A stretch of DNA of 64,000 bases. Source: the human T2T-CHM13v2.0 reference genome, Homo sapiens. The notes under the pieces are model-generated. The model was not told the DNA's origin. It did not search any database and saw only the letters and a program-made list of their open reading frames with translations. Location of the stretch: NCBI RefSeq assembly GCF_009914755.1, contig NC_060926.1. One strand, 5' to 3'. Each line of letters begins with the position of its first letter. Position 1 is the stretch's first letter. This document shows, piece after piece, positions 36,810-53,075 of this stretch. A program made the position numbers and the translations under genes.

Positions 36810-39825
<3,016 letters not shown>

Positions 39826-40814
39826 CTTTCAAAATTATTTTGAATGAAATAATTCATGGAATACATCACTACAAAGTCAGCCTTGAATACAATTTATTGA
39901 CTTAAATATAGCTAAATTATTTTAAAAATTGGTAGACTCTTAGACTCCCGTCCACCCTTGGTCTCAAAAGAGATACCTTTTCATAGACATAGAATACCCT
40001 GACATATGGAGAGCCCACCACTTCCACAGTACCATGGAATCAGGGGAATTATCCAAATAGTGGTTTCCTTGTTGTACCCTAGGCAGGGACAGTCAAGAAA
40101 ACTTCATGGATCTGTAGTGTAAAGCTAGGGAGAAAGAGGAAGAGTTGCCTGTTTGAATTTCTGTAACTAGCGTATCTCCAGATAATGCATGAACAGCCAG
40201 TAAAGATGAACGCAGATTATTGATGGAAAGAACACACATGGAGAAGAGAAAAAGCAAGTCCACAGAGCTTTTTAACATACACTCCCTCACCCCTACCCCC
40301 AGCTTAGAAGGGCAGGAACCTGCTGTCCAAAACAGGAAATATAGGAAATACCAGCTGAGAAACTGTCCACTTGACGTCCATGAGCCCAGCTGCCCCTCTC
40401 ACCTCACTCCTATTTTAAGTCAGTGACACACAGTCATGCTTTCCTTTTCTGCACCTGAAGGAGTGATGTCACTCCAGACTGAGTCCTTATTAGAGGTGAT
40501 GATGGAGTTATTTTTAGACCTGGGAATGGTCTAAAACATTTTGCCTCAGCCTAATCATTGGATCCTTCAAGGAAATGGATATTCTGATGCACATCCCACC
40601 CGGTGTCCTATCAAATGGAACCTTAGCTCTCAGGCAACTTGTTAGTTTGAAGGCAGTGACAATGAGGCCAAGAATGACTCCTGGCTCCTCCACTCTGCCA
40701 TCACAGGCTGCACCCAGAGCCTCCCACATCAGATTGTACCCACCGTGCCAGTGGAAGTGATCTCTAAGTCAAGCTATTCCTGCCCTCTCTAGCCTACTTT
40801 CTCTGGGAGGCATT

Positions 40815-41680
40815 AGAACACAGTCAGATCCCGAGAGTCCAGACCTGGATTCTATTGCTTTGTAAGCTAGGTCTTTGGGCAAATTACTTCTCTAGGCTTT
40901 TGTTTCCCGGTCTACATAAATGAGACGAATTCATGGTTATGTGGACTAAGTAAAAAGTTGTAGGTACAAAGTTCCCCTGGTGCTGGCAGTGGGGAGTGCT
41001 CCATAATCTCTAGCCATTGCTATTGTTATTCTCAGCGTGCTGAAAGCACTTTCATGTATGCTGTTTCACTTGATCTTTTTTAAAAGGACTGTACATGTTT
41101 TAATTAATTTAATCTTCTGTATAGTTTTATGAAGAACACACTCTTTTGACCTCATTTAACAGCTAGCCATATAACTAATAAGTGATAGAGGTAAGATTTA
41201 AAGAGAGTCTGGTTTCAGAGAACATTCTCTTGATCACTGTATACAAATATTATTCCAACCATAGTGTAGGCTCTTCTGGTCTTACCCTTCCTATGAGAGA
41301 GGGGTTATTGTCTCCATTTCATAAATGAAAGCAGTAAGAGTCAGAGCAATTCACTGAGCTGACAAGTCATAGGATCACTGAACAAGGGCTCCAGTGGCAG
41401 TGCCTGGGAGTGGCAGAACAAATAGCACAGTATCACATACAACTGCAGCAACAGCAGCAGTACCCGCAGCAAGTACAATGACACATTTACTACACACTTG
41501 CTCTCATTTAATACTCACAAGAATTATGGCCTCTGGGTTCTATCATCAACACCATTGCAGATGAGGGGACCAAAGTTCAGCTGGATCAAGGAAGGTGTTC
41601 AGGGGCATAGAGCTAGGGAGTAATGGAGTTGGGTGTCCCCCTGGTCTACCATGCCCAAGCTGTGCCTCAGCTTCTGTGCT
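40815..41680. mobile_element. Cluster of MIR fragments
   Basis: tttgggcaaattactt, ccatttcataaatgaaa, ttgcagatgaggggaccaaag cores. Confidence 0.65.
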
Positions 41681-43424
41681 GCCATCTCCTGCAGCACTTA
41701 AACAGAACCCCTAAGAACAACTAGCAGCACTTGCCTGATCAATGTAGCCAACAGAAGGAGGACAACCTATTTTTCATAGATTTTTTGGGGGATTTTCTAT
41801 TTAAATAATCATGCTGCCTAAAAAAGGAGACAGTTTCATTTCTTATTTTCCAATGAGCATGACCTTTATTCCCTTTTCCTGCCTTATTGCAGTGGCTAGA
41901 ACTTCTAGTACTGTGTTTAATAAGACTGATGAAAGTAGAAATCTTTGCCTTGTTTTGGATTGTATAAGGCAATGTATTCTGTCTTTATCATGAAATACAA
42001 TGTCTGATGTAGTTTTTTAATAGATGTTCTTTATGAGGTTGAGGAAGTCTCCCTCTATTCCTAGTGTATTTGAGAGGATTTTCTATTTTCATCATTAATG
42101 GGTGTTGAATTTTGTTAAATAATTTTTTGTTGCCAACTGCTATGATTATATGGTTTCTCTTCTTTAGCCTGTTGCTATGATAAATTTTATTAATTTCTTT
42201 TCAAATATTGAATCAGCTTTGTCTACCTGGCATAAATTTCACTTGGTCATGGTGCTTTAGTCTTTTTATACATTGTTGGATTTTGATTAATTACATTTGA
42301 TTGGTGGTTTTTACATCCAAAGTTCATGAGAGATATTGATCTGTAGCTTTCTTTTTGCATACTTTCTTTAGCTGGTTTGGGTATCAGAGTAATGACGGCT
42401 TCATAAAGAGAATTGGGAACTTCCTAATTTTCTCTTCTCTCCTATTTTCTGGAAGATACACATAGAATTGGCATTAATTTTTATTTGAATGTTTGGTAAA
42501 ATTCTTGGATGAAACCCTCTGGACCTGGAGATTTCTTTTTGGGGAGTATTTTTATTATAAATCCAATTCTTAGAAATATCTACACAGCTATTCAGATTAT
42601 CTGTTTCACCTTGGCTAAGTTTTAGTACTTTGTGGTTTTTGAGGAATTAGCCCATTTCTTCAAACTTGTTGAATATATGAGCATAAAGTTGATTACAGTT
42701 TTTAAATTATCTTTTTATAGCTAAAGACATCTATTGTGGTGTCCCCTATTTCATTTCTGATGTTGGTGATTCATGTCTTCTCTCTTTTTATATTTGCCAT
42801 TCTTGCTAAAAGTTATTAATCTTATTAATTCTTTTAAAGAGACAACTTTCTGTTTCATTTTTTCTTTTTCCAGTTTTCAAGTTCATTAGTTTCTGCTCTT
42901 TTTTATTTCCTCCTTTCTGCTTTCTTTGAGTTTATTTTGCTCAACTTTTCTAATTTCTTGAAGTAGAAACTTAGATTAGTAATTTGAGATCATTCCTCTT
43001 TTCTAATGTAAGCATTTACTCCTATCAATTTTATTCTCAGCACTGCTTTAGCTAATCTTACAAATTTTAACATGTCATATTTTCATGTTCATTCTTTTCT
43101 TGTCTTTTTAAAATTTCCTTTGAGATTACCACTTTGACGCATGGATTATTTAAATGTTTTTTGTTTAGTTTCCAAGGGTTTGGAGATTTGCCTATTGACT
43201 TTCTGCCTTGATTTCTACTTTGATTTTATTATGGCCAGGTAACATAGTCTGTATAATTTCAATTCTCTTGAACTTTTTAATGTTTGTTTTATGATCTAGG
43301 ATATGCTCTATCTTGGTAAATGTCTCATGGGACCTTTAAAAAAATGTGTATTCTGCTGTTGTTGGACAGATTGTGCTATGAATGCCAATTAGATCCTGTC
43401 AGTTGATGGTGTGGTTGAGTTTTT

Positions 43425-44218
43425 CTATATTCTTGCTGATTTTCTTGCTAGTAGTCCTAGAAGTCCTGAGTGCAGGGAGACAGCAGGGATTGATGCCTCA
43501 ACCACAATTGTGGATTTCTTCTTTCAGCTGTCTTAGTTTTTGCTTCAGACATGTGAAAGTCTGTTGTTTGGTTCATAGGTATGTAGAGAAAATGCTCACT
43601 AACTGTGTTTTTCTTTTACTGTCACACCACAATCATCAACACAGAAGAAAGGCCCAGTGACTCATGGGAAACTACTGTATTAAAAACTTGCAGCTAATGT
43701 TTTAAATTAACCAGAAAAAACACAAAAGTCAGAACACTGCACCAACAGATAGAGCCCTGTGCCTTTATAAAAGAAAAAAAATATTGCCTTCTATACACTC
43801 TCCCTCACCATAAAGATAATCCTCTGGTTTTCTCCTAAGTAACCAGAGAGTGGATACCCCACACCGCAAAAAAATAAAATTCTATTTGTTGAATATCTTT
43901 TGTCTTAAAGATAACAGCTCAGGAAAAATAGACTGCACTTAACATGATTTATGTCATTCCTTTTTTGTGCCCTTATACGATATGAAGAAAGGCTTCTGTG
44001 TTGATGTTGTCATGGTGTGACAGCAGAAGAAAAACACAGCTAGGGAGAGTTTTCTCTACATACCTATGAACCACACAACAGACTTTCACATATCTGAAGC
44101 AAAAACTAAGACAGCTGAAAGAAGAAATCCACAATTGTGGTTGGGGCATCAATCCCCCACTGTCTCCCCACACTCAAGACTACTAGGACTACTAGGGAGA
44201 AAATCAGCTAGAATATAG
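43425..44218. repeat. Inverted repeat: arms 43425-43647 and 43993-44218
   Basis: Arms are reverse complements at ~90% identity by manual alignment; ORFs 43382+ and 43973- share GLMPQPQLWISSFSCLSFCFR. Confidence 0.97.
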
Positions 44219-44890
44219 CAGCGGACACCAGCTGGGTGTCCTCCAATGCAGTTCTGACACTATCTACCCAGAGATAGAGTCAGATCCCACAGGTTGAAGG
44301 TTCAGCCCCCAAGACTGCCCCCATACACACACCAGTTGTAAGTCTGGGCCTCCACAACTTCTGACTAGCCAGCTTCAAGGTGGGGTTCCCATGACCCCCT
44401 CTTTGGGTTTGATTAATTTGCTGGAGCAGCTCTCAGAACTCAGAGAAATGCTTACCTATGTTTACGGGTTTATAATTAAAAAATATTGCAAAGGAGACAG
44501 ATGAAGAGATGCCTAGGGTGAGGTATGGAGAAAGGGTCACGGAGCTTCCATGCCCTCCCTGGGTGCACCACGCTCCAGGAACCTCCACATGTTCAGCTAT
44601 CTGGAAGCTTAACAACCCTGTCCTCTTGGCTTTTTATGGAAGCTTCATGATGTCAGCATTCCTTCCCCCAGGATATAGGGTGGGACTGTCTCATGGGAGG
44701 GTCTTAAGATCCACAATGAGAAAGGCAGAAAGGTGGGAGAACATTAGAGTGAAAGGAAGGCAGGAGAAGGTCAGAGGCCTGTCCCTGAGGCCTAACACCC
44801 CCAACAATATAACAAAAGACTCTAACACGGGATGTGGGAGTTATGAGCCAGGACCCATGGATGAAAGCCGACATATATCATAACATCACA
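43582..44890 (-). mobile_element. MER21-family LTR carrying the complex insertion
   Basis: tgtttttcttttactgtcacaccacaatcatcaacacagaag then cagcggacaccagctgggtgtcctcc...gtcagatcccacaggttga...ataacatcaca. Confidence 0.75.
43652..43983 (+). repeat. Direct copy of 46521-46849
   Basis: gcccagtgactca...ccttata(c/t)gatat aligns end to end at roughly 88-90% identity. Confidence 0.97.
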
Positions 44891-46520
44891 ACAGGAGAGC
44901 TACATCTTCTTGGTGAATTAATTCTTTTTGTTATTATGTAATTTCCCTCTTTGCCTATAGTAACTTTCTTTGCTCTGAAGTCTGCTTTTTCTGATGTTAA
45001 CATAGCCACTTGTGCTTCCTTCTGACTAATGTTTACACGTTATATCTTTTTCCATCAATTTGCTGTCAGTCTACCTATATCATTGAATTTGAAGTGAGTT
45101 TCTTGTAAACAACACATAGCTGGGTCATGTTTTGTAATACACTCTGCCAATCTCTGCATTTTAATGGATGCATTTAGAACATTTACATTTAAGATAATTA
45201 TTGATATATTAGGACTAAGTCTGATATTTTATTATTATTTGTTCTCTGATTGATCCTTTTGTTTATTACACTTTTGTTTCTTTTTTCTTGCCTTCCTGTG
45301 GTTTACTTGGACATTTTTTGATGTTTCATTTTGATTTAATTGTGATTTTTTTTTTCGGCATATCATGTTATGTTGTTTCCTTAGTGCTTATTATGTTTGG
45401 AAACTCTGTAGATGGACAGCCTTCCATGATGGGGAGGAAGCTGCAGGGCCTGGGTCTCCTTATGCCACTGGATGGAGTCTGGGGAGACACAGGGCTTCAC
45501 AGTGGCTGCTTCTGTGGGTGAATTAGGCCATGTGCTGTGTCTAAGTTGTGGACTGGGGGCCAGGACTGTCCAGGGCTTTGCTGCTGCTACTATTGCTGCT
45601 GATGCCACTGCTGGCAGATCAATCTCTCTGCAAGGACCCTGGGTTGTACAAAACAGGGGCTAGAGCTTCCTACTGGGTCTCTGTTGGGGCTCCCCTTTCC
45701 TGAACTTTGGCCAAAGACAACAGGATATTCTTGGGGGTTTTGTTGTTGTTTTGTTGTCATTTTTTCTGTGCCTGTTGGTGATTCCAGCACAGCCCAGCGT
45801 ATATGGGAGACAAAAAGAAAACTTAGAAAACTTACCATGTTGCTGTTACTCAAGTCCTGAGGTTTCTTGCAAGTACACCTTTTCTTCTAGCTTTCAGAGC
45901 CCTTTATCATTGTCTGCTGAATAGTTTCCAAGGTACTTAGTTGTATTTAGAGGAGCAGAGCAGGGAAAAATGAGTTTAACCATCTTGTTCCAGAACTGGA
46001 AGTCGGCAGAGCCTGTTTTAAAAATAATGTTTAAAACAAATTTTATTTCGTGGGTGATTTTCCAGAAAGCAGAAAAAGTACTATCGATGGCACTTCCTAT
46101 AATAAAAACTACACCCTATGCTTTCTTGGAAGGAATCAATTGCATTATTCAACAGTCGTCTTCCTCTGAACCTGCTCTGCATTTAGTCAACAGGATATTG
46201 AATTCCTTTTAAAAATCTAAACAGATTATCACTTCTTTCCTGAACCAAAAGTTGATTAGTAATGTAAATACTTGTCTGTAACACAGAAAACTGTGTTTTC
46301 TTTGAGCTCTTCCTATTCCGTATCCCTTGTCTTGAATGAGGAGTTTTTCCTTTGGCACCAAAAGGTTACAACTACATTTATCTACAAATAAACTACCATA
46401 GAAGAACTGGAACTTTCCTAATTATCAATGTTTAGCTGCACTAATAAAGCTTTCTTATATCTGTGTTCTCCTTGTTTCTTGTCTTGGACCCTTGCCTGAC
46501 ACAGATAGGATGGGCTTTCA

Positions 46521-46849
46521 GCCCAGTGACTCACGGGAAACTACTACATTAAAAACTTGGAGCTAATGTTTTAAATTAACCAGAAAAAAACACAAAAGGC
46601 AGAACACTGCACCAATGGATAGAGCCCTGGCCCTTTATAACAGAAAAAAAAATACTGCCTTCTATACACTTTCCTTCACCACGAAGATAATCCTCTGGTT
46701 TTCTCTTAAGTAACCAGAGAGTGGACCCTCCCACAAAAAACAAGTTCAATTTGTTAAATATCTTTTGTCTTAAAGATATAGCTCAGGAAAAAGTAGACTG
46801 CACTTAACATGATTTATGTCATTCTTTTTTTGTGTGCCTTATATGATAT
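46521..46849 (+). repeat. Probable donor of the 43652-43983 copy
   Basis: Embedded in non-repeat AT-rich flanks with no visible junction. Confidence 0.9.
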
Positions 46850-47864
46850 CTCATGACTTGGAAAACTCCTATAAATATGTAAAATATTAGAATGTATAGC
46901 AAAAAATTGTCAGTTTACGTTATTTTTGGCTTATCTCAGTACAAAGATTAATGTGGTAAAATTGAATATTTATATCCTTAAGATAAAATTGAATGTTCCA
47001 ATGTGAAGTAACATATTTTCAACTACATTTTTTTTTTCTGAAATCCCTTTATCACCACAAACTCTATCTTTAAAAAAAAAAAAAAGTTCACAACATATAC
47101 CATTTTCTGGCTCTACATGAAAAGTTTATTGTTTGTGTGCAGGGTTAAAGAGAAGCCAATAAGTTAACATGTTATATTTGACATGGGAGCTGTTCACTCC
47201 AAATTTTAAGAAAAGCCAGAAAAATCACGTACAGGCAACCAACCAGAGCGTTAAAATGGCCTTTTGTTAATTGTTAAAAATCTGTATAGAAGTACATTTT
47301 TTTTTAATTTGTAAAAGTGGAAGCAATTTGAGTCACTTTAATTTACAGCATGAATGGAAGATTCTCGGAGTCATCTATAACCTCAGCAGAAAATGTGATT
47401 ATAAAAGTTTATAAAAACCCCAGTTCCCCAGAGAGCTATGAAATGAGCAGAGTGCAGAACATATTCTATCAGTCTCTTGAAATATTATTTGCCCTCTTAA
47501 CTGATAAGGCAATGGAGGAAGAAAGTAAGAATGTAATACAAATATGAAAAAGTGACTACCTTTGCCTGCCTTCAACAAACCTAACTTTAAATAAAATAAG
47601 AATAATGAACAAATCAGCTAAAAAAGAAAACAGCTTTTCCCCTAGTTTCTTTTGAAGTGAATCTCCCTTTACTTTTTTTAAATTTCTTGGAATCCTACAA
47701 ATTAAGGCTTCCTTGGAAATGAATGAATTTTTTAGAATTTCAAGACTCAAAAGATAAACAAAGAAGTCTGTTTTTCTTCTCTCACCCACCCCAACCCTGT
47801 GAATAACCCCAGGTTACAGCCTGGGTTTCCCTCTGTTCTTTATGTCTATCAGGGGTTTTAGAGC

Positions 47865-47943
47865 TGGGGAGGTCAGTGGGGGAAGGATGGGGAAGAGGGG
47901 GAGGTGGGGAAAGGAGGGAGAAGGGGAGAATAAGTGGGGTGGG
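47865..47943 (+). repeat. G/purine-rich tract with G-quadruplex potential
   Basis: At least 8 runs of three or more G separated by short purine-rich linkers. Confidence 0.6.
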
Positions 47944-50569
47944 CTCATCTCAGAGTGAACCTCGGCTGTAGCTGGGTACAGGATGTCACACGCATGCCTG
48001 CACACACAAAATGTACACAGTGAAACCGGGCAATAGAACTATTAAAAAAAAAAAAAAGAAAGAAAGAAAGAAAGAAAATGTACTGCTACATCAGCTAAAA
48101 ACAGTCGTGTTCTTTCCTGGTTTGATGTCAGCTCCCAGTACTGGCTTGGAATTGCCCACAGCGATCTTGGGCCCCTGCCCACTCAGCAGGCAGACGGCTT
48201 TCCCTGCCAGCAACAGGCTTTTAATAAAACAGGATGCTGTCCCACTACTAAGGCCCAGCCTGAGAATGGATCCCAGTCCGTGTGAACTCCCTCTCCAAGA
48301 AACAGCAGTTCTGTGTTCCTTATCAGGAAACCCCACTTTGGCGTTCCTGGCCTGGGAGAAAGGCCCCTCTCCCAGGGACTTGCTCAGCAAGTGTTTGCAG
48401 GCAGCCGCTGGCCCCTGGAGCTGTCTGCTCTGCAAGGTTCTCACCACAGTGAGCTTGCTCCCGCAGGGACTTCTCATTCTGTGCGTGTGTTTCAGCTTTT
48501 AGGAAGGCTCTGTCTGACTTTGATAGTCAAGCAGGATGGGATTTAAAATAAGGAGCTGGCTTCTACAGGCAGGATGAGGACATTTCGCCCCTATCTTCCT
48601 GCAGCAAACCCCAGTGAGTCACGCCAGGACTGCACTTGAACTGACTTCTCATCTTAAGTGTGAAGAGTTTTATCATTTTGGGGAGGCTCACCCGTCTATT
48701 TGTTTACTTCTCATTTGGAATGAAATGGAGTATGTTCCATTTGGAGCAGCAATTTCTAATTTTTTTCCAGCTGCAGTTTGACAAAAGTCCAAACTAAGGA
48801 GTAAGATTCCACGGCACCTTCCAAACCCTGGAGCTCCATGGCTGCAGAGCCCAGGACCACCTTTCCTTGGCTGTATACCACCCTCTTGTCCTAGGGTAGA
48901 AGAACTGTGATTCTGAAAGTTGTCCCAGAGTATTAGCCCCAGCCCCACAGGCACCAGCAGGATCCCTTTCGTGCCACACTGTCCTGTACAGAGGTGGCCG
49001 AGTATAGCATGACATCACAGACTGGGAGACACACATGCTGTCAGGAAGTGGACTTAGATGACATCCTATGACAGTGAATTCCAATGGGAAAGAGAAGTCA
49101 TTGTTGTTGATAGAGAAGGCTGGACAACCTGGATTCTACCCCCAAATCTGCCCTGACTTCCTGTGTGGCCTTAGACAGCTTGATAGATGTGTGACTCAGT
49201 TTCCCCATTTTGTAAAACACAGAGCAGATTGTTAAAGGACGGGCAAATAACTAGCTCATATGCTGTCACTCCCCCTTCCCTCATCCACTCAGACATTGGG
49301 AATCACTCCCAGCACTTTTCTTCCTGTGTCCAGATGTGACAACCCAGTCAGCCACAACCAAACGATCAGAGACAGCCCTGGGAGCAAAGGCTTGTGATGG
49401 TTTCTAAGGCTTCTTCCAACTCTGACCATCCATAAGTCCCAGTCTAAGCCCAATACATTTCTGTTTACTTTGAAGTTCTGGGGAGGAAATTGGAGGAATT
49501 GGTGTTACAGGTGGTGTTTTCATTCCTTCTCTCACTGGAAGGTTGTGAGTTTGGAAAAGAAAAGGAGAAAGAGGAAGTACATGGAGGGAACATCTGGGCA
49601 TGTAGATGGTGTCACAGTGGAGAATTTTGTCTCCTGGACTGCAGCCCAGATCCACCTCAGAACAGCGGGGGCCTGGCAGGAAGCAGGAAGTGCTGGCCCA
49701 AAGCTGGGAAGAGCAGAGCATGCTGCAGGAGGCCAGCCCATGAGACCAGAAAAAGTGCAATTGGTAACTTCAGAGGGAGGAGTGAAAAGAGCCCAAGTAA
49801 ATCTATAAAGCCAGGGAAGATAGAGCACAGCACAGGAATATGAGCTAGGACTCTTGAAAGCAGAAGGAACGACCCTTGCTGACTCAAGCAGGGAGGGGAA
49901 TGAATTGGAAGCTATGAAGGAGCTTGTGAGGTCAACAGGGGTGCTGGATTCTGAGCTGGAGAACCAGGTTCAACTGGGACAAGAGCGCTCCACCATCAAG
50001 CGCCTCTACAGGGAACAAACAGCCTGCTGTCCCTCCCCCTGGGACCACTCAGCTCAGCTCAGCTCAGGACCACCCTGGGGCAAGGGAGGAGACACTGTGG
50101 ACAACTTTCCACTTCCACGCAGGGGGAAAAGCACCTGGATTTACCATGAAGACGGCGCCCAGTGAGAGAGTAGTGCCACAAAAGGACATCGAATTGGGGA
50201 AAGAAGAGGCAGTGGATTCCAGGCTGCTGAAAAAGCAATGCCCGGCACTGTGTATAACACAGAGGTGTCACACACAACCACAGCAAGTGACCAGACCAGG
50301 TCAAGAGTCAGAGAAGTTAGCAAGCAAACATTAAATCCAATCCAGCAGGCCTGTGGGACAAAGTTAGGAGTAACTCCAAGGTCATTTGCCAGGTGTGGAA
50401 ACCCATCTGGGAGGCTCAGTGGGGTCAGAGGGTAAAGACAAGGCCGATTAATTACCAGCTCTCAGGAGCGAGCTGAGTGGAGCATGTGGAGGAGTGCAGA
50501 GGATGTCGCAGGCAAGAGTCAAGGTCAGGAATGTTCAGACCGAGATGAATGAGGGAATAAAAGCAGGCA

Positions 50570-51085
50570 CCTGTGCACAGGGCTCGGGGTTACCCATCTC
50601 AATTCTGGTGGGGTCTCCCTTGCTAGAAAAGAGCTGCATTGAAAGGCCCAGCTGCCCCTTAGCTACAGAGTGGAGGAAGTGTCCAGTTTGTGTCAGCAAT
50701 ATCACTCGCAGTCAGGAAGGCTCATGTGCTCTCTTCTCTGGGAAAGCAAGTCTTCCAAATTCAGTTTGGCAGAGCACCAGTTTGCTGAGATAGGAGCCAA
50801 ACCTAAGCGCTGGGGTCCTGCTCCCCACCATGGCTATGCCAAGCTGGAGGCTGCTGCTGCGCCACCTCCTCCTTCCACACAGAGCGTCAGAGGAACCAGA
50901 TGGACACAACTGAGTCCTGAGGACATTACCAGGGCTGTGAACCCAGCTGTGCCGAAAGCCAGGTCTACCTTTGGATGTTGCTTGATGGTAATTCCTAGGG
51001 GAAACTTCTCTGAGCAACAGATTCTCTTTTCGTGTTTAAGCCAGTTTGAGGTAGTTTTCTGTCACTTATAACCACAAAGTGTGTC
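50570..51085 (+). mobile_element. Old MaLR LTR (MLT1K/L-like)
   Basis: cccagctgtgccgaaagccag and tttaagccagtttgaggtagttttctgtcacttataacc 3' end. Confidence 0.65.
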
Positions 51086-51099
51086 AGGAATAGGTAGAT

Positions 51100-51270
51100 A
51101 ATAATATTAATACTAACCACAACTAAGCACTATTTCCTTCAATCCTCATAACAACTCCAGGAGGTAAATTCTGTTATCATACACAATTATATCAAATTGA
51201 AGAAACTGAGGCTAATGTCCTAGTGCCACACAATATTAACCTGGAGGGCTGGGGCTAGGGAGTCTGAACA
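51100..51270. mobile_element. MIR
   Basis: ttcaatcctcataacaactccaggaggta...gaagaaactgaggct. Confidence 0.7.
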
Positions 51271-52733
51271 CACACAGATCCCAAGTGAGAAAAGAGATTA
51301 GGAGAAAACCCCAAATTCTGCATATGTATCGTCAATAATCCTGAATAAGCCCAGTGAGGACCAAAAAGAGGAAATAGTTAGAAAAATCCAGTGTGGGCCA
51401 CACAGGGTACCACTGGTGATCTCAGACTTTCAGAAAGGCATACCCAGAAGATAAGAAGTTGACATGGAGTCAATACCGGGGTTGGGGGGGCCTGAACCTG
51501 TGAGAACCACACTGGGAAACCAAAAGCCCACACCAAGCAGAGGCTGAAAATAGGCCCGTGATCTCAGAAGGGTTTTCAAAGCTATTTGAAGAGTGGGACA
51601 AGAAAGGGATTACACAGGAAAGATGCTAAAATGTAGAAACTTGAGAAAAAAAAAAAAAAGGAGGCAGAGCCAAGTAATTTCAACTTCACGTCTCTCTCTT
51701 CTAGTTAGAAAGATGCTCTTCCAAAAGGTGGACCCCTGGCCTGGTGAGAAGACAGCAAGGTGGTGCTTGGATGCCCTACACAAGTTTAACAATGAAAACT
51801 CTTCGATGACCTGGCAGCAACACAGAAACTCAACACAGGGAAGCCCTCTCCTGGGCAAACGGTCCATTTCTAACATTTATAAAAATGGTCAATTGTCGAT
51901 GGCAATCCCTGAGGGAATATTCTAGAACTACTGACCATCTAGATTGAAAATATTTCAGAAAAAACATAGGGTACAACATGGGTTCAGTACCCCCCAAACA
52001 ACCATAAATCTTTCATGATGGGGTGATTAATGCTGACCAGGTGACTCTGGTAAGTACTGTATACCAAAAATAACCTCAGCAAGCAGCTGACAGTTTTTCA
52101 GGATAGTCTTGTTTTTGAAACGGAGGAATATGGACCAGATGAAAATAAGATAAGAGGGATTCCTAGCAAATTGTAAAATGATGCCCAAATGAAATGATGA
52201 ACTTTGAAGTCTTATGAAGGGGGACAGTGCCAGGGGTCATATTCCTTCCACTGGCCCAGCCTTAACAGTGTCCTTGAAGGTGAACTTGGAGATGTCCTTT
52301 CAGACGCTACTGATGGGGCAGGAATCAGAGCAGTGGGGGGTTGTGGTCAGGATTGAGTGAGCTGGGTGTGTGACATACATACCATTGTTAGGCTGTTGCT
52401 CTGGTACTGGCCACCTCTACGCTGCCTGGTGCCCTGTCTTTGGGGGCACAAGACTTGGATCCCCATCTCATCTCCCCATTATAGTTTTGCAATATTCGTC
52501 AAATCACTCCACCATTCTGGGATTCAGTTTCCTCATCTGTAGATTTGAAAAAAGATGCCAAAGGCACTTGTGTCTACTGTGTGGGTAACCAGAAGCTGAG
52601 AAGGACAATGAATGCAATAAATAACCAAATCATGAATGATTCAAATTCATTTCAATAGGACCGAATATGAGGTCAAACCAACAACACCCAGAAGAATTTA
52701 GTTGGAATATATGTCAAGAAAAACACAGTATTA

Positions 52734-53075
<342 letters not shown>

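What the first reader, a model, noticed from the sequence alone, without database searches (positions are those of the whole stretch)
43425..44218. Fossil fold-back palindrome with ~225-bp arms nucleated at an LTR micro-hairpin
Seen: 43425-43647 and 43993-44218 are reverse complements at ~90% identity. The arm spans the L1/MER21 junction, so it postdates the LTR insertion and cannot be two independent elements. Removing the spacer leaves caacacagaag-aaagg-cttctgtgttg, a palindrome with a 5-nt loop. After arm 2 the LTR resumes at cagcggacacc. Recalled, not verified: the MER21 consensus has a natural cacagaag..ttctgtg quasi-palindrome here and ~60 bp of LTR is missing. Inference: a nascent or broken strand snapped back on that hairpin, copied itself for ~225 nt and then switched back to the LTR.
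Basis: partly seen in the sequence, partly recalled or inferred. Interest (0 to 1): 0.8.

Follow-up and report, generated by a model that had tools for sequence, protein, structure and literature searches.

The report
Ancient fold-back duplication at LTR hairpin
Tens of millions of years ago a piece of an old retroviral LTR and the L1 next to it was copied backwards onto itself at a small natural hairpin, and a copy of DNA from 3 kb away was caught in the middle; it is a clear but ordinary scar of faulty DNA repair.

Summary
Window 43425-43647 and 43993-44218 are inverted copies, with 18-21 mismatches in 214-215 aligned bases.

- **One origin.** The arm joins 155 nt of an antisense L1 ORF2 remnant to the first 68 nt of a solo LTR (43580-44890, 5-bp target duplication). 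Only this locus and its 99.4% segmental-duplication twin at chr2:87.62 Mb span that junction.
- **The hairpin is native.** The turn sits on an 8-bp hairpin of the LTR family: perfect in 10 of 30 copies, at least 6 bp in 15 of 30, never longer than 8 bp.
- **The LTR resumes** after a 2-nt microhomology. About 30-36 nt are lost, not about 60.
The spacer (43653-43983) is a copy of unique DNA 2.87 kb downstream (46522-46849), flanked by a 9-nt direct repeat. It is as diverged from its source as the arms are from each other (Fisher p = 0.87).

Best reading: one break-repair or replication episode, roughly 20-60 Myr ago, combining snap-back synthesis with a templated insertion. The LTR matches a copy that print labels MER21C, but subfamily and class stay open. 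The mechanism is known, so this is a new member of a known kind.

The parts
43425..43579 (+). Arm 1, L1-derived part. It is the original copy, contiguous with the L1 to its left, and is the antisense of an L1 ORF2 endonuclease-region remnant.
   Evidence: Genome hits covering only query 1 to about 160. An L1 copy (L009) aligns continuously across 43302-43577. Stop-free pieces on the - strand hit LINE-1 ORF2p residues 6-54 (45058-45228, E 1.5e-10) and 505-544 (42250-42423, E 1.7e-7).
43575..43579 (.). Left copy of the 5-bp target-site duplication of the LTR (ATAGG).
   Evidence: Register test over 11 independent insertions: k=5 gives 35 of 55 matching positions, against 21-32% for k=3, 4, 6, 7 and 8. 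In the window 4 of 5 positions match.
43580..43652 (+). 5' end of the solo LTR. It is the LTR part of arm 1 up to 43647, with the 5' half-stem of the native hairpin at 43640-43647 and the 5-nt loop at 43648-43652.
   Evidence: Alignments to family copies. The first four bases read TATG here and TGTG in 6 of 10 independent other copies.
43644..43652 (.). 9-nt direct repeat, left copy (GAAGAAAGG).
   Evidence: Read directly. It is identical to 43984-43992.
43653..43983 (+). Templated insertion of 331 nt, a direct-orientation copy of window 46522-46849.
   Evidence: Direct-repeat families D1-D5 with spacing 2865-2871. Only 4 places in the genome: this one, its source, and the two in the chr2:87.62 Mb twin. 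26 mismatches in 324 aligned, or 39 in 325 with MAFFT.
43984..43992 (.). 9-nt direct repeat, right copy.
   Evidence: Read directly.
43993..44000 (+). 3' half-stem of the LTR's native hairpin. It is the turning point: family copies continue into LTR sequence here, whereas the window continues into the inverted arm.
44001..44218 (-). Arm 2, the inverted copy of 43425-43639. The last 2 nt (AG, 44217-44218) are shared with the resuming LTR.
44217..44890 (+). Remainder of the solo LTR, ending in ...ACA.
   Evidence: 40 scored matches out of 3080 first-look candidates. The 38 that are neither the window nor its twin are 74-81% identical, and most reach query position 664-674 of 674.
44891..44895 (.). 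Right copy of the 5-bp target-site duplication (ACAGG). The L1 resumes here.
   Evidence: The right flank aligns to the same L1 copy, L009, just after the left flank.
46522..46849 (+). Donor of the templated insertion. It is unique sequence, still in place 2.87 kb downstream, beyond the MIR4435-2HG exon at 45836-46012.

Best explanation
This is the scar of one faulty break-repair or replication episode, or of two steps in quick succession, in an anthropoid ancestor roughly 20-60 Myr ago. A solo LTR of the MER21 group had long before inserted into the endonuclease-coding part of an L1. This LTR copy carried, 60 nt from its start, a native hairpin with an 8-bp stem and a 5-nt loop. A 3' end of a broken or nascent top strand that ended at the hairpin's 3' half-stem folded back and paired with the 5' half-stem. 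It was then extended on its own strand for about 218 nt, through the LTR start and 155 nt into the L1. The extended end was rejoined to the LTR about 30-36 nt downstream of the hairpin through a 2-nt microhomology. That produced the inverted duplication and the small deletion. At the centre, a 331-nt copy of unique DNA from 2.87 kb downstream was synthesised and joined in with 0-1 nt of homology, and 9 nt around the loop were duplicated. The insert turned a near-perfect palindrome into an inverted repeat with a 345-nt spacer. That form is tolerated, so it drifted to fixation. It has decayed neutrally on both arms and was later copied with a recent segmental duplication. Shown: the four junctions, the family hairpin, the donor, the equal divergences and the twin copy. 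Inferred: polarity, enzymes, a break versus a stalled fork, and one episode versus two.
For: The turn lies exactly on the family's hairpin. Of 30 aligned copies, 10 have a perfect 8-bp stem and 15 have at least 6 bp, and two natural copies fold at -7.0 and -7.9 kcal/mol. Arm 1 sits in its original L1 context. The L1/LTR junction inside the arm occurs nowhere else except in the twin. Family copies have 38-47 nt between the positions aligned to 43650 and 44219 in 28 of 30 cases. Once the retained half-stem is subtracted, about 30-36 nt are missing. All 4 copies in alignment A3 read AG just before the point where the LTR resumes, and arm 1's reverse complement ends in the same two bases. The insert has one donor in the genome. 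The arms show 18 mismatches in 214 and the insert versus its donor 26 in 324, Fisher p = 0.87, pooled JC 0.087 +/- 0.013. MAFFT gives 21 in 215 and 39 in 325. Derived changes lie on both arms: 4 on arm 1, 9 on arm 2 and 5 unresolved, p = 0.27. The twin at chr2:87.615-87.625 Mb keeps the whole structure at 99.39% over 10,005 columns. Experimental precedent: fold-back inverted duplications primed on microhomology at breaks, plus templated insertions, in yeast (PMC11724301, abstract read); hairpin-mediated foldback inversions (PMC7467729, abstract); fold-back inverted duplications in human CNVs (PMC3907307, abstract); short-range template switches in great apes (PMC7954356, passages).
Against: No pre-event allele or outgroup genome was available, so the ancestral state is inferred from other family copies, not observed. 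None of the 30 sampled copies, and none of the roughly 20 LTR-5' hits, shows a second fold-back at this hairpin, so the hairpin is not a demonstrable hotspot. The snap-back tract of about 218 nt is much longer than the 5-34 bp reported in yeast. Two of the four junctions have 0-1 nt of homology, which fits end joining better than a purely microhomology-driven replicative model. The 5-nt loop matches no sampled copy exactly, so its being native is an inference from the longer-loop variants. Equal divergence shows similar age only within wide errors (+/- 0.02), so two events millions of years apart are not excluded.
Confidence: 0.75

Rival explanations
1. Two well-separated events. A fold-back first made a near-perfect palindrome with a 5-nt loop. 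Much later its centre was broken by staggered nicks 9 nt apart, as in centre-break revision of palindromes, and was repaired with capture of a copied fragment, leaving a 9-nt target-type duplication.
For: An exact 9-nt direct repeat flanks the insert. The insert junctions have 0-1 nt of homology, which is end-joining-like. The centre-break mechanism was seen only as an entry in a reference list, the paper itself was not held, and its content is recalled.
Against: Arm/arm and insert/donor divergences are indistinguishable: 8.4% against 8.0%, p = 0.87. From recalled knowledge, a 220-bp palindrome with a 5-nt loop should not persist long unrevised.
Confidence: 0.15
2. The insert came first and the fold-back came later, with the half-stems pairing across a loop of about 345 nt.
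For: Large-loop hairpins can mediate foldback inversions in yeast (PMC7467729, abstract).
Against: Once the insert is in place, the sequence beside the right half-stem offers only a 4-bp local stem at -1.8 kcal/mol. The equal ages give no sign of an earlier insertion.
Confidence: 0.05
3. The spacer is a retroposed piece of the MIR4435-2HG primary transcript, inserted by L1 machinery and leaving a 9-nt target-site duplication.
For: The 9-nt duplication is within the usual size range for L1-mediated insertions (recalled). The donor lies in an intron of a transcribed lncRNA gene (annotation given with the finding).
Against: Neither end of the insert has an A or T run, and the donor is not followed by an A-rich stretch. 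The donor is only 2.87 kb away and in the same orientation, as is typical of templated insertions.
Confidence: 0.03
4. It is not one event at all, but two independent elements in opposite orientation, a chance match, or an assembly artefact.
For: Both the L1 and the LTR family are abundant, with 3080 first-look candidates for the LTR.
Against: Both arms share the same L1/LTR junction base for base, and no third locus spans it. Fold z = -33. The structure is present in two places of a gapless assembly that differ by 0.6%, and its arms have about 9% accumulated divergence.
Confidence: 0.01

Closest known systems
Local foldback inversions and templated insertions at double-strand breaks in yeast (Yu et al. 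2024, PMC11724301; abstract read)
   Same: [quoted passage not shown] Templated insertions from other loci occur in the same setting.
   Different: The yeast tracts are mostly 5-34 bp; here the tract is about 218 nt. This is a fixed germline event in a primate, known only from its scar, and the enzymes are unknown.
Hairpin-mediated foldback inversions in yeast (Li, Putnam and Kolodner 2020, PMC7467729; abstract read) and fold-back inverted duplications in human CNVs (Hermetz et al. 2014, PMC3907307; abstract read)
   Same: Intrastrand pairing at short inverted sequences, with an inverted duplication around a short spacer.
   Different: Those events create dicentric or terminal rearrangements of kilobases to megabases. 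Here synthesis stopped after about 218 nt and rejoined locally, so the chromosome stayed intact.
Short-range template-switch mutations and quasi-palindrome correction (Walker et al. 2021, PMC7954356, passages read; Ripley 1982, seen in its reference list only)
   Same: A switch to the complementary or nascent strand at a pre-existing imperfect inverted repeat extends it into a longer inverted repeat.
   Different: Those events span tens of nucleotides and usually replace sequence. This one adds 218 nt, loses about 30-36 nt and carries a second, distant templated segment.
Replicative multi-switch models (FoSTeS/MMBIR; recalled, and named in the reviews listed)
   Same: Several template switches in one episode, nearby donors and short junction homologies.
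   Different: Two junctions here have 0-1 nt of homology, and the 9-nt duplication looks like a staggered-break fill-in, so a break-and-join component is as likely.
MER21-group solo LTRs (MER21C 938-bp consensus, 5418 human copies, Boreoeutheria; MER21B 2894 copies, Euarchontoglires; PMC12129452, passages read)
   Same: The window's LTR matches the copy under CMKLR2-AS exon 1, which that paper labels MER21C: 72% over 119 nt, E 1.6e-10, and 5 other family copies hit the same spot. The family has thousands of copies.
   Different: Copies of this family are about 757-795 nt long as measured from 43582, two bases more from the corrected start, not 938. The subfamily (A, B or C) is therefore open.

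Membership tests
Solo LTR of the MER21 group | Terminal TG...CA | tested here: met
   The 3' end reads ...ACA at 44890, as in 10 of the 11 independent insertions tabulated, the window included. The 5' end reads TATG at 43580, where 6 of 10 independent other copies read TGTG, so it differs by one substitution.
Solo LTR of the MER21 group | Target-site duplication of fixed length | tested here: met
   A 5-bp register is the only one above chance: 35 of 55 positions over 11 independent insertions, against 21-32% for k=3, 4, 6, 7 and 8. The window has ATAGG / ACAGG, 4 of 5.
Solo LTR of the MER21 group | Sequence homology to a copy named MER21 in print | tested here: met
   Window 44494-44609 matches chr2:206685431-206685546 inside CMKLR2-AS exon 1, which PMC12129452 labels MER21C: 72% over 119 nt, E 1.6e-10. 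The match is weak and covers one segment only. No labelled reference library was available.
Solo LTR of the MER21 group | Length equal to the MER21C consensus (938 bp in print) | tested here: not met
   12 full-length family copies span 757-795 nt as measured from 43582, two bases more from the corrected start. The window keeps 755 nt plus about 30-36 lost. It therefore cannot be filed as MER21C, and the subfamily is left open.
Solo LTR of the MER21 group | Solo state (no internal region beside it) | tested here: met
   The same L1 copy aligns to both flanks with a 19-nt gap. The L1 identity of the flanks comes from ORF2p hits.
ERV class of the LTR (ERV1 versus ERVL) | Relationship of the internal genes of full-length relatives | not tested
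   Print places MER21 in class I / ERV1 (PMC5753468 table; PMC1781489). I recall RepeatMasker filing it under ERVL. By a recalled rule a 5-bp duplication fits ERVL.
Fold-back (snap-back) inverted duplication | The inverted copy abuts the original and turns at a pre-existing short inverted repeat | tested here: met
   The turn is at 43993-44000, the 3' half of a stem present in family copies.
Fold-back (snap-back) inverted duplication | The far end of the copy is rejoined by little or no homology, with local loss of sequence | tested here: met
   There is a 2-nt AG overlap at 44217-44218, and about 30-36 nt of LTR are absent.
Fold-back (snap-back) inverted duplication | Pre-event allele lacking the inverted copy | not testable with these tools
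   No other primate genome or human haplotype was available. The only paralogue (chr2:87.62 Mb) postdates the event.
Templated insertion | The donor is retained elsewhere and the insert is a copy, with junction homology of at most a few nt | tested here: met
   The donor 46522-46849 is still in place. Only 4 genomic places hold the sequence, 2 of them in the twin. Junction homology is 1 nt on the left and 0 nt on the right.
L1-mediated retroposition of the spacer | Poly(A) tail at one end plus a target-site duplication | tested here: not met
   A 9-nt duplication is present, but neither end has an A or T run.

The most novel reading that the evidence does not exclude
The native 8-bp hairpin, carried by thousands of copies of this LTR family, may be a recurrent seed for fold-back rearrangements in primate germlines, with this locus merely the first one recognised. 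A linked possibility is that the roughly 220-bp stem formed in the MIR4435-2HG primary transcript (-442 kcal/mol as RNA) is a substrate for editing or small-RNA processing at both paralogous loci. The sample here found no second case in 30 copies or in about 20 further 5'-end hits. That does not exclude a low rate across several thousand copies.
Probability: 0.1. Interest if true: 0.55.

Novelty: new member of a known kind. Interest (0 to 1): 0.3.

Why it matters
All four junctions of an old, fixed germline rearrangement can still be read to the base. They are the hairpin turn, the 2-nt return junction and the two ends of a templated insert with a 9-nt duplication. The locus is therefore a clean natural example showing three things:

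- A transposon's own small hairpin can nucleate a fold-back.
- Snap-back synthesis in a mammalian germline can run for about 200 nt.
- An insert at the centre accompanies the long-term survival of such a palindrome.

It also gives a dated marker for the MIR4435-1HG / MIR4435-2HG duplication, because the structure predates it. It does not reveal a new mechanism, and no function is indicated.

Tried and rejected
**RefSeq repeat mask.** The first parse returned nothing because of my own filter. The re-parse showed no masked stretch between window 37871 and 52738 even though the region is L1 and LTR, so the mask is too light to help.

**Alignment method.** MAFFT global alignments overcounted mismatches next to small indels: 39 in 325 for insert versus donor. 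An affine-gap alignment gave 26 in 324. Both are reported, and the age range covers both.

**LTR start and target duplication.** My first attempt placed the LTR start at 43582 and found no consistent duplication. Moving the start to 43580, which most copies support, gave the 5-bp signal.

**L1 label.** Pfam on 8 separate stop-free L1 pieces gave one sub-threshold Exo_endo_phos hit (E 0.0018), one spurious Spo12 hit and 6 blanks. Named PDB hits settled the L1 label instead.

**Other blanks.**
- Rfam at gathering thresholds found no family in 42500-47500.
- Arms L1 part against LTR part showed no significant difference in divergence, p = 0.58.
- Polarising the 18 arm mismatches with outgroup copies gave 9 derived on arm 2, 4 on arm 1 and 5 unresolved, p = 0.27. 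There is therefore no evidence for error-prone synthesis.

**Literature.** Searches for 'MER21' + 'MIR4435-2HG' (1 paper, unrelated), 'MER21' + 'palindrome' (3 papers, 2 listed; listing only) and 'MIR4435-2HG' + 'inverted repeat' (2 papers, listing only) turned up no description of this structure. The centre-break paper was not held.

**Rejected readings.** These were independent insertions, chance, assembly artefact and retroposition of the spacer. The reasons are given under the rivals.

Full report
**Observation.**
- The repeat finder reports two collinear inverted pairs: 43486-43629 / 44013-44156 (144 nt, 94%) and 43425-43488 / 44155-44218 (64 nt, 86%). The five other inverted pairs in 42000-47000 are 20-28 nt at 71-85%.
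- A pairwise alignment shows the homology beginning exactly at 43425/44218 and running to the half-stems 43640-43647 and 43993-44000.
- Mismatch counts depend on gap placement: 21 in 215 with MAFFT and 18 in 214 with an affine-gap alignment.
- As a single strand the region folds at -442 kcal/mol, against -208 +/- 7 for 20 shuffles.

**What the arm is made of.** Searching the whole reference with arm 1 (39 matches scored of 55 candidates) and with arm 2 (39 of 52) gave the same picture.
- The only full-length matches are the locus itself, the other arm (90%) and two places at chr2:87.62 Mb (89-100%).
- Every other hit covers either query 1 to about 160 or query about 150 to 225, never both.
- The arm is therefore a junction of two repeat families that exists once in the genome, plus a recent duplicate.
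- The left family is L1, lying on the minus strand. Separate stop-free pieces match LINE-1 ORF2p residues 6-54 (window 45058-45228, E 1.5e-10) and 505-544 (window 42250-42423, E 1.7e-7) in the PDB.
- An L1 copy (L009) aligns to both flanks of the LTR with a 19-nt gap. The LTR therefore sits inside the endonuclease-coding remnant of an old L1, and arm 1 is the original, in context.

**The LTR.**
- With 44219-44892 as query, 3080 first-look candidates were found and 40 scored. The 38 that are neither the window nor its twin are 74-81% identical over almost the whole 674 nt, and most end at query 664-674.
- Twelve full-length copies span 757-795 nt as measured from 43582, two bases more from the corrected start.
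- The family's first bases read TGTG in 6 of 10 independent other copies. The window reads TATG at 43580 and ends in ACA at 44890.
- A register test over 11 independent insertions gives 35 of 55 matching positions for a 5-bp duplication, against 21-32% for k=3, 4, 6, 7 and 8. Two rows were dropped because they duplicate the L032 insertion. The window has ATAGG / ACAGG.
- This is a real solo LTR, 43580-44890, interrupted by the rearrangement.

**Name of the LTR family.**
- No labelled repeat library is available here, so I used print. PMC12129452 (passages read) states that exon 1 of GPR1-AS/CMKLR2-AS overlaps a MER21C LTR.
- RefSeq places that exon at chr2:206685283-206685584. The window's LTR matches inside it (72% over 119 nt, E 1.6e-10), as do five other family copies.
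- The MER21 label is thus supported, though weakly and over one segment.
- The same paper gives a 938-bp MER21C consensus, which does not fit the 757-795 nt copies measured here, so the subfamily is open.
- Print files MER21 under class I / ERV1 (PMC5753468 table; PMC1781489). I recall RepeatMasker filing it under ERVL, and by a recalled rule a 5-bp duplication fits ERVL. Settling the class needs inner genes, so I stopped there.

**The hairpin.** Thirty-two other copies were examined, and 30 had the 5' part aligned (L026 and L029 did not).
- Ten carry a perfect 8-bp stem at the homologous place (two of them are duplicates of one insertion), 3 a 7-bp stem and 2 a 6-bp stem. The rest have point changes. 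None has a stem longer than 8 bp.
- There are two loop forms: a 1-nt loop in about 20 of 30 copies and a 4-nt loop in about 10 of 30. The window's 5-nt loop is closest to the longer form, so it is probably native, but this is an inference.
- Two natural copies fold as DNA at -7.0 and -7.9 kcal/mol.

**The four junctions.**
- **(1) The turn.** After the 3' half-stem (43993-44000), family copies continue into LTR sequence. The window instead continues with the reverse complement of arm 1.
- **(2) The return.** Arm 2 ends at 44218 and the LTR resumes. The last two bases, AG, belong to both sequences.
  - Family copies have 38-47 nt between the positions aligned to 43650 and 44219 in 28 of 30 cases, with outliers at 29 and 52.
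  - After subtracting the retained half-stem, about 30-36 nt of LTR are missing, not about 60.
- **(3) and (4) The spacer.** It is not anonymous.
  - 43653-43983 is a direct-orientation copy of 46522-46849, 2.87 kb downstream. The sequence occurs at only four places in the genome: these two and their counterparts in the twin.
  - The insert is flanked by an exact 9-nt direct repeat, GAAGAAAGG, at 43644-43652 and 43984-43992. Its junctions with the donor context share 1 and 0 nt.
  - Neither end has a poly(A) or poly(T) run.

**Age.**
- Arm against arm gives JC 0.089 +/- 0.021, and insert against donor gives JC 0.085 +/- 0.017. The two are indistinguishable (Fisher p = 0.87), and pooled they give 0.087 +/- 0.013. 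MAFFT gives 0.105 and 0.131.
- At 1.0-2.2e-9 substitutions per site per year (recalled rates), this is about 20-43 Myr, or up to about 60 Myr on the MAFFT counts.
- The value lies between the human-macaque and human-New-World-monkey divergences as I recall them (about 6-7% and 11-12%). That points to the anthropoid or catarrhine stem.
- Derived changes lie on both arms: 4 on arm 1, 9 on arm 2 and 5 unresolved, p = 0.27. This is what long neutral decay predicts.
- The LTR itself is 19-24% different from its best relatives. That is about 0.11-0.145 per lineage after correction, some three times the per-arm value. This fits the Boreoeutherian or Euarchontoglires age given in print for MER21C and MER21B.
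- The twin at chr2:87615001-87625000 is inverted, collinear and 99.39% identical over 10,005 columns, and it keeps every part. The structure therefore predates that recent duplication.

**Mechanism.** The simplest account is a fold-back.
- A 3' end finishing at the hairpin's 3' half-stem paired with the 5' half-stem. It was extended on its own strand for about 218 nt and then rejoined to the LTR through 2 nt of homology, with a small loss.
- The centre carries a templated insertion from a nearby donor and a 9-nt duplication.
- Equal divergences argue that both parts belong to one episode or to two steps close in time.
- The polarity cannot be decided: the hairpin may have been the exit point or the return point. 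Nor can a broken end be told from a stalled fork. Both options give the same product.
- The pieces have experimental precedents. These are foldback priming on microhomology at breaks with polymerase extension and end-joining capture, plus templated insertions (PMC11724301, abstract); hairpin-mediated foldback inversions (PMC7467729, abstract); fold-back inverted duplications in human CNVs (PMC3907307, abstract); and short-range template switches in great apes (PMC7954356, passages).
- What differs is scale and setting. The tract is about 218 nt rather than 5-34 bp or kilobases, the event is fixed in a primate germline, and it was nucleated by a transposon's own hairpin.

**Rivals.**
- A later centre-break revision would explain the 9-nt duplication, but the equal ages disfavour it.
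- Insert-first would leave only a 4-bp local stem at -1.8 kcal/mol.
- Retroposition of the spacer lacks a tail.
- Independent elements, chance or artefact are excluded by the shared unique junction, the fold statistic and the two diverged genomic copies.

**Function.** Nothing suggests a function. Rfam finds nothing. The region lies in an intron of MIR4435-2HG, and the nearest exon, 45836-46012, lies between the palindrome and the donor. The minus-strand transcript would form a stem of about 220 bp. Whether that stem forms or is edited in cells is untested.

**Verdict.** The mechanism is a known kind, so interest is modest.

**Limits.**
- No outgroup genome was available.
- No labelled repeat library was available.
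- Only about 50 of several thousand family copies were inspected.
- Paper supplements were closed.

Noticed in passing
window 39611-49615 vs L045 (chr2:87615001-87625000): An inverted segmental-duplication twin, 99.39% identical over 10,005 columns (56 mismatches, 2 gap openings), carries the whole fold-back structure. It is presumably the MIR4435-1HG paralogue, but that name is recalled and was not checked.
   Followed up: partly
L032 (chr7:57.95 Mb), L036 (chr12:37.43 Mb), L037 (chr9:48.43 Mb): Three copies of the LTR family have identical flanks and the same exact 5-bp duplication. They are one insertion spread by pericentromeric duplications. Two of the three were dropped from the counts of independent insertions.
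   Followed up: partly
30 LTR copies, position homologous to window 43640-44000: The family hairpin comes in two forms, a 1-nt loop (about 20 of 30) and a 4-nt loop (about 10 of 30). This probably marks subfamilies.
   Followed up: no
LTR 43580-44890 and print: The family makes 5-bp target duplications, yet two papers file MER21 under class I / ERV1, where I recall 4 bp being the rule. This may be a classification inconsistency, and it was left open.
   Followed up: no
window 43415-44228, minus strand: As part of the MIR4435-2HG intron transcript, the arms would form a stem of about 220 bp (-442 kcal/mol, z = -33). That makes it a candidate long double-stranded RNA at both paralogous loci.
   Followed up: no
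window 37872-52737: The RefSeq soft-mask table lists no masked repeat across this 15 kb, although it holds an L1 remnant and an LTR. The mask supplied is too light to serve as repeat evidence.
   Followed up: yes
window 45380-45830: A stretch richer in G+C, with CTG/GCT-rich runs, lies just beside the annotated MIR4435-2HG exon (45836-46012). It was seen while reading and was not examined.
   Followed up: no
arms 43425-43639 / 44001-44218: Arm 2 has more derived substitutions than arm 1 (9 against 4, with 5 unresolved). The difference is not significant (p = 0.27). It is in the direction that error-prone snap-back synthesis would give.
   Followed up: yes
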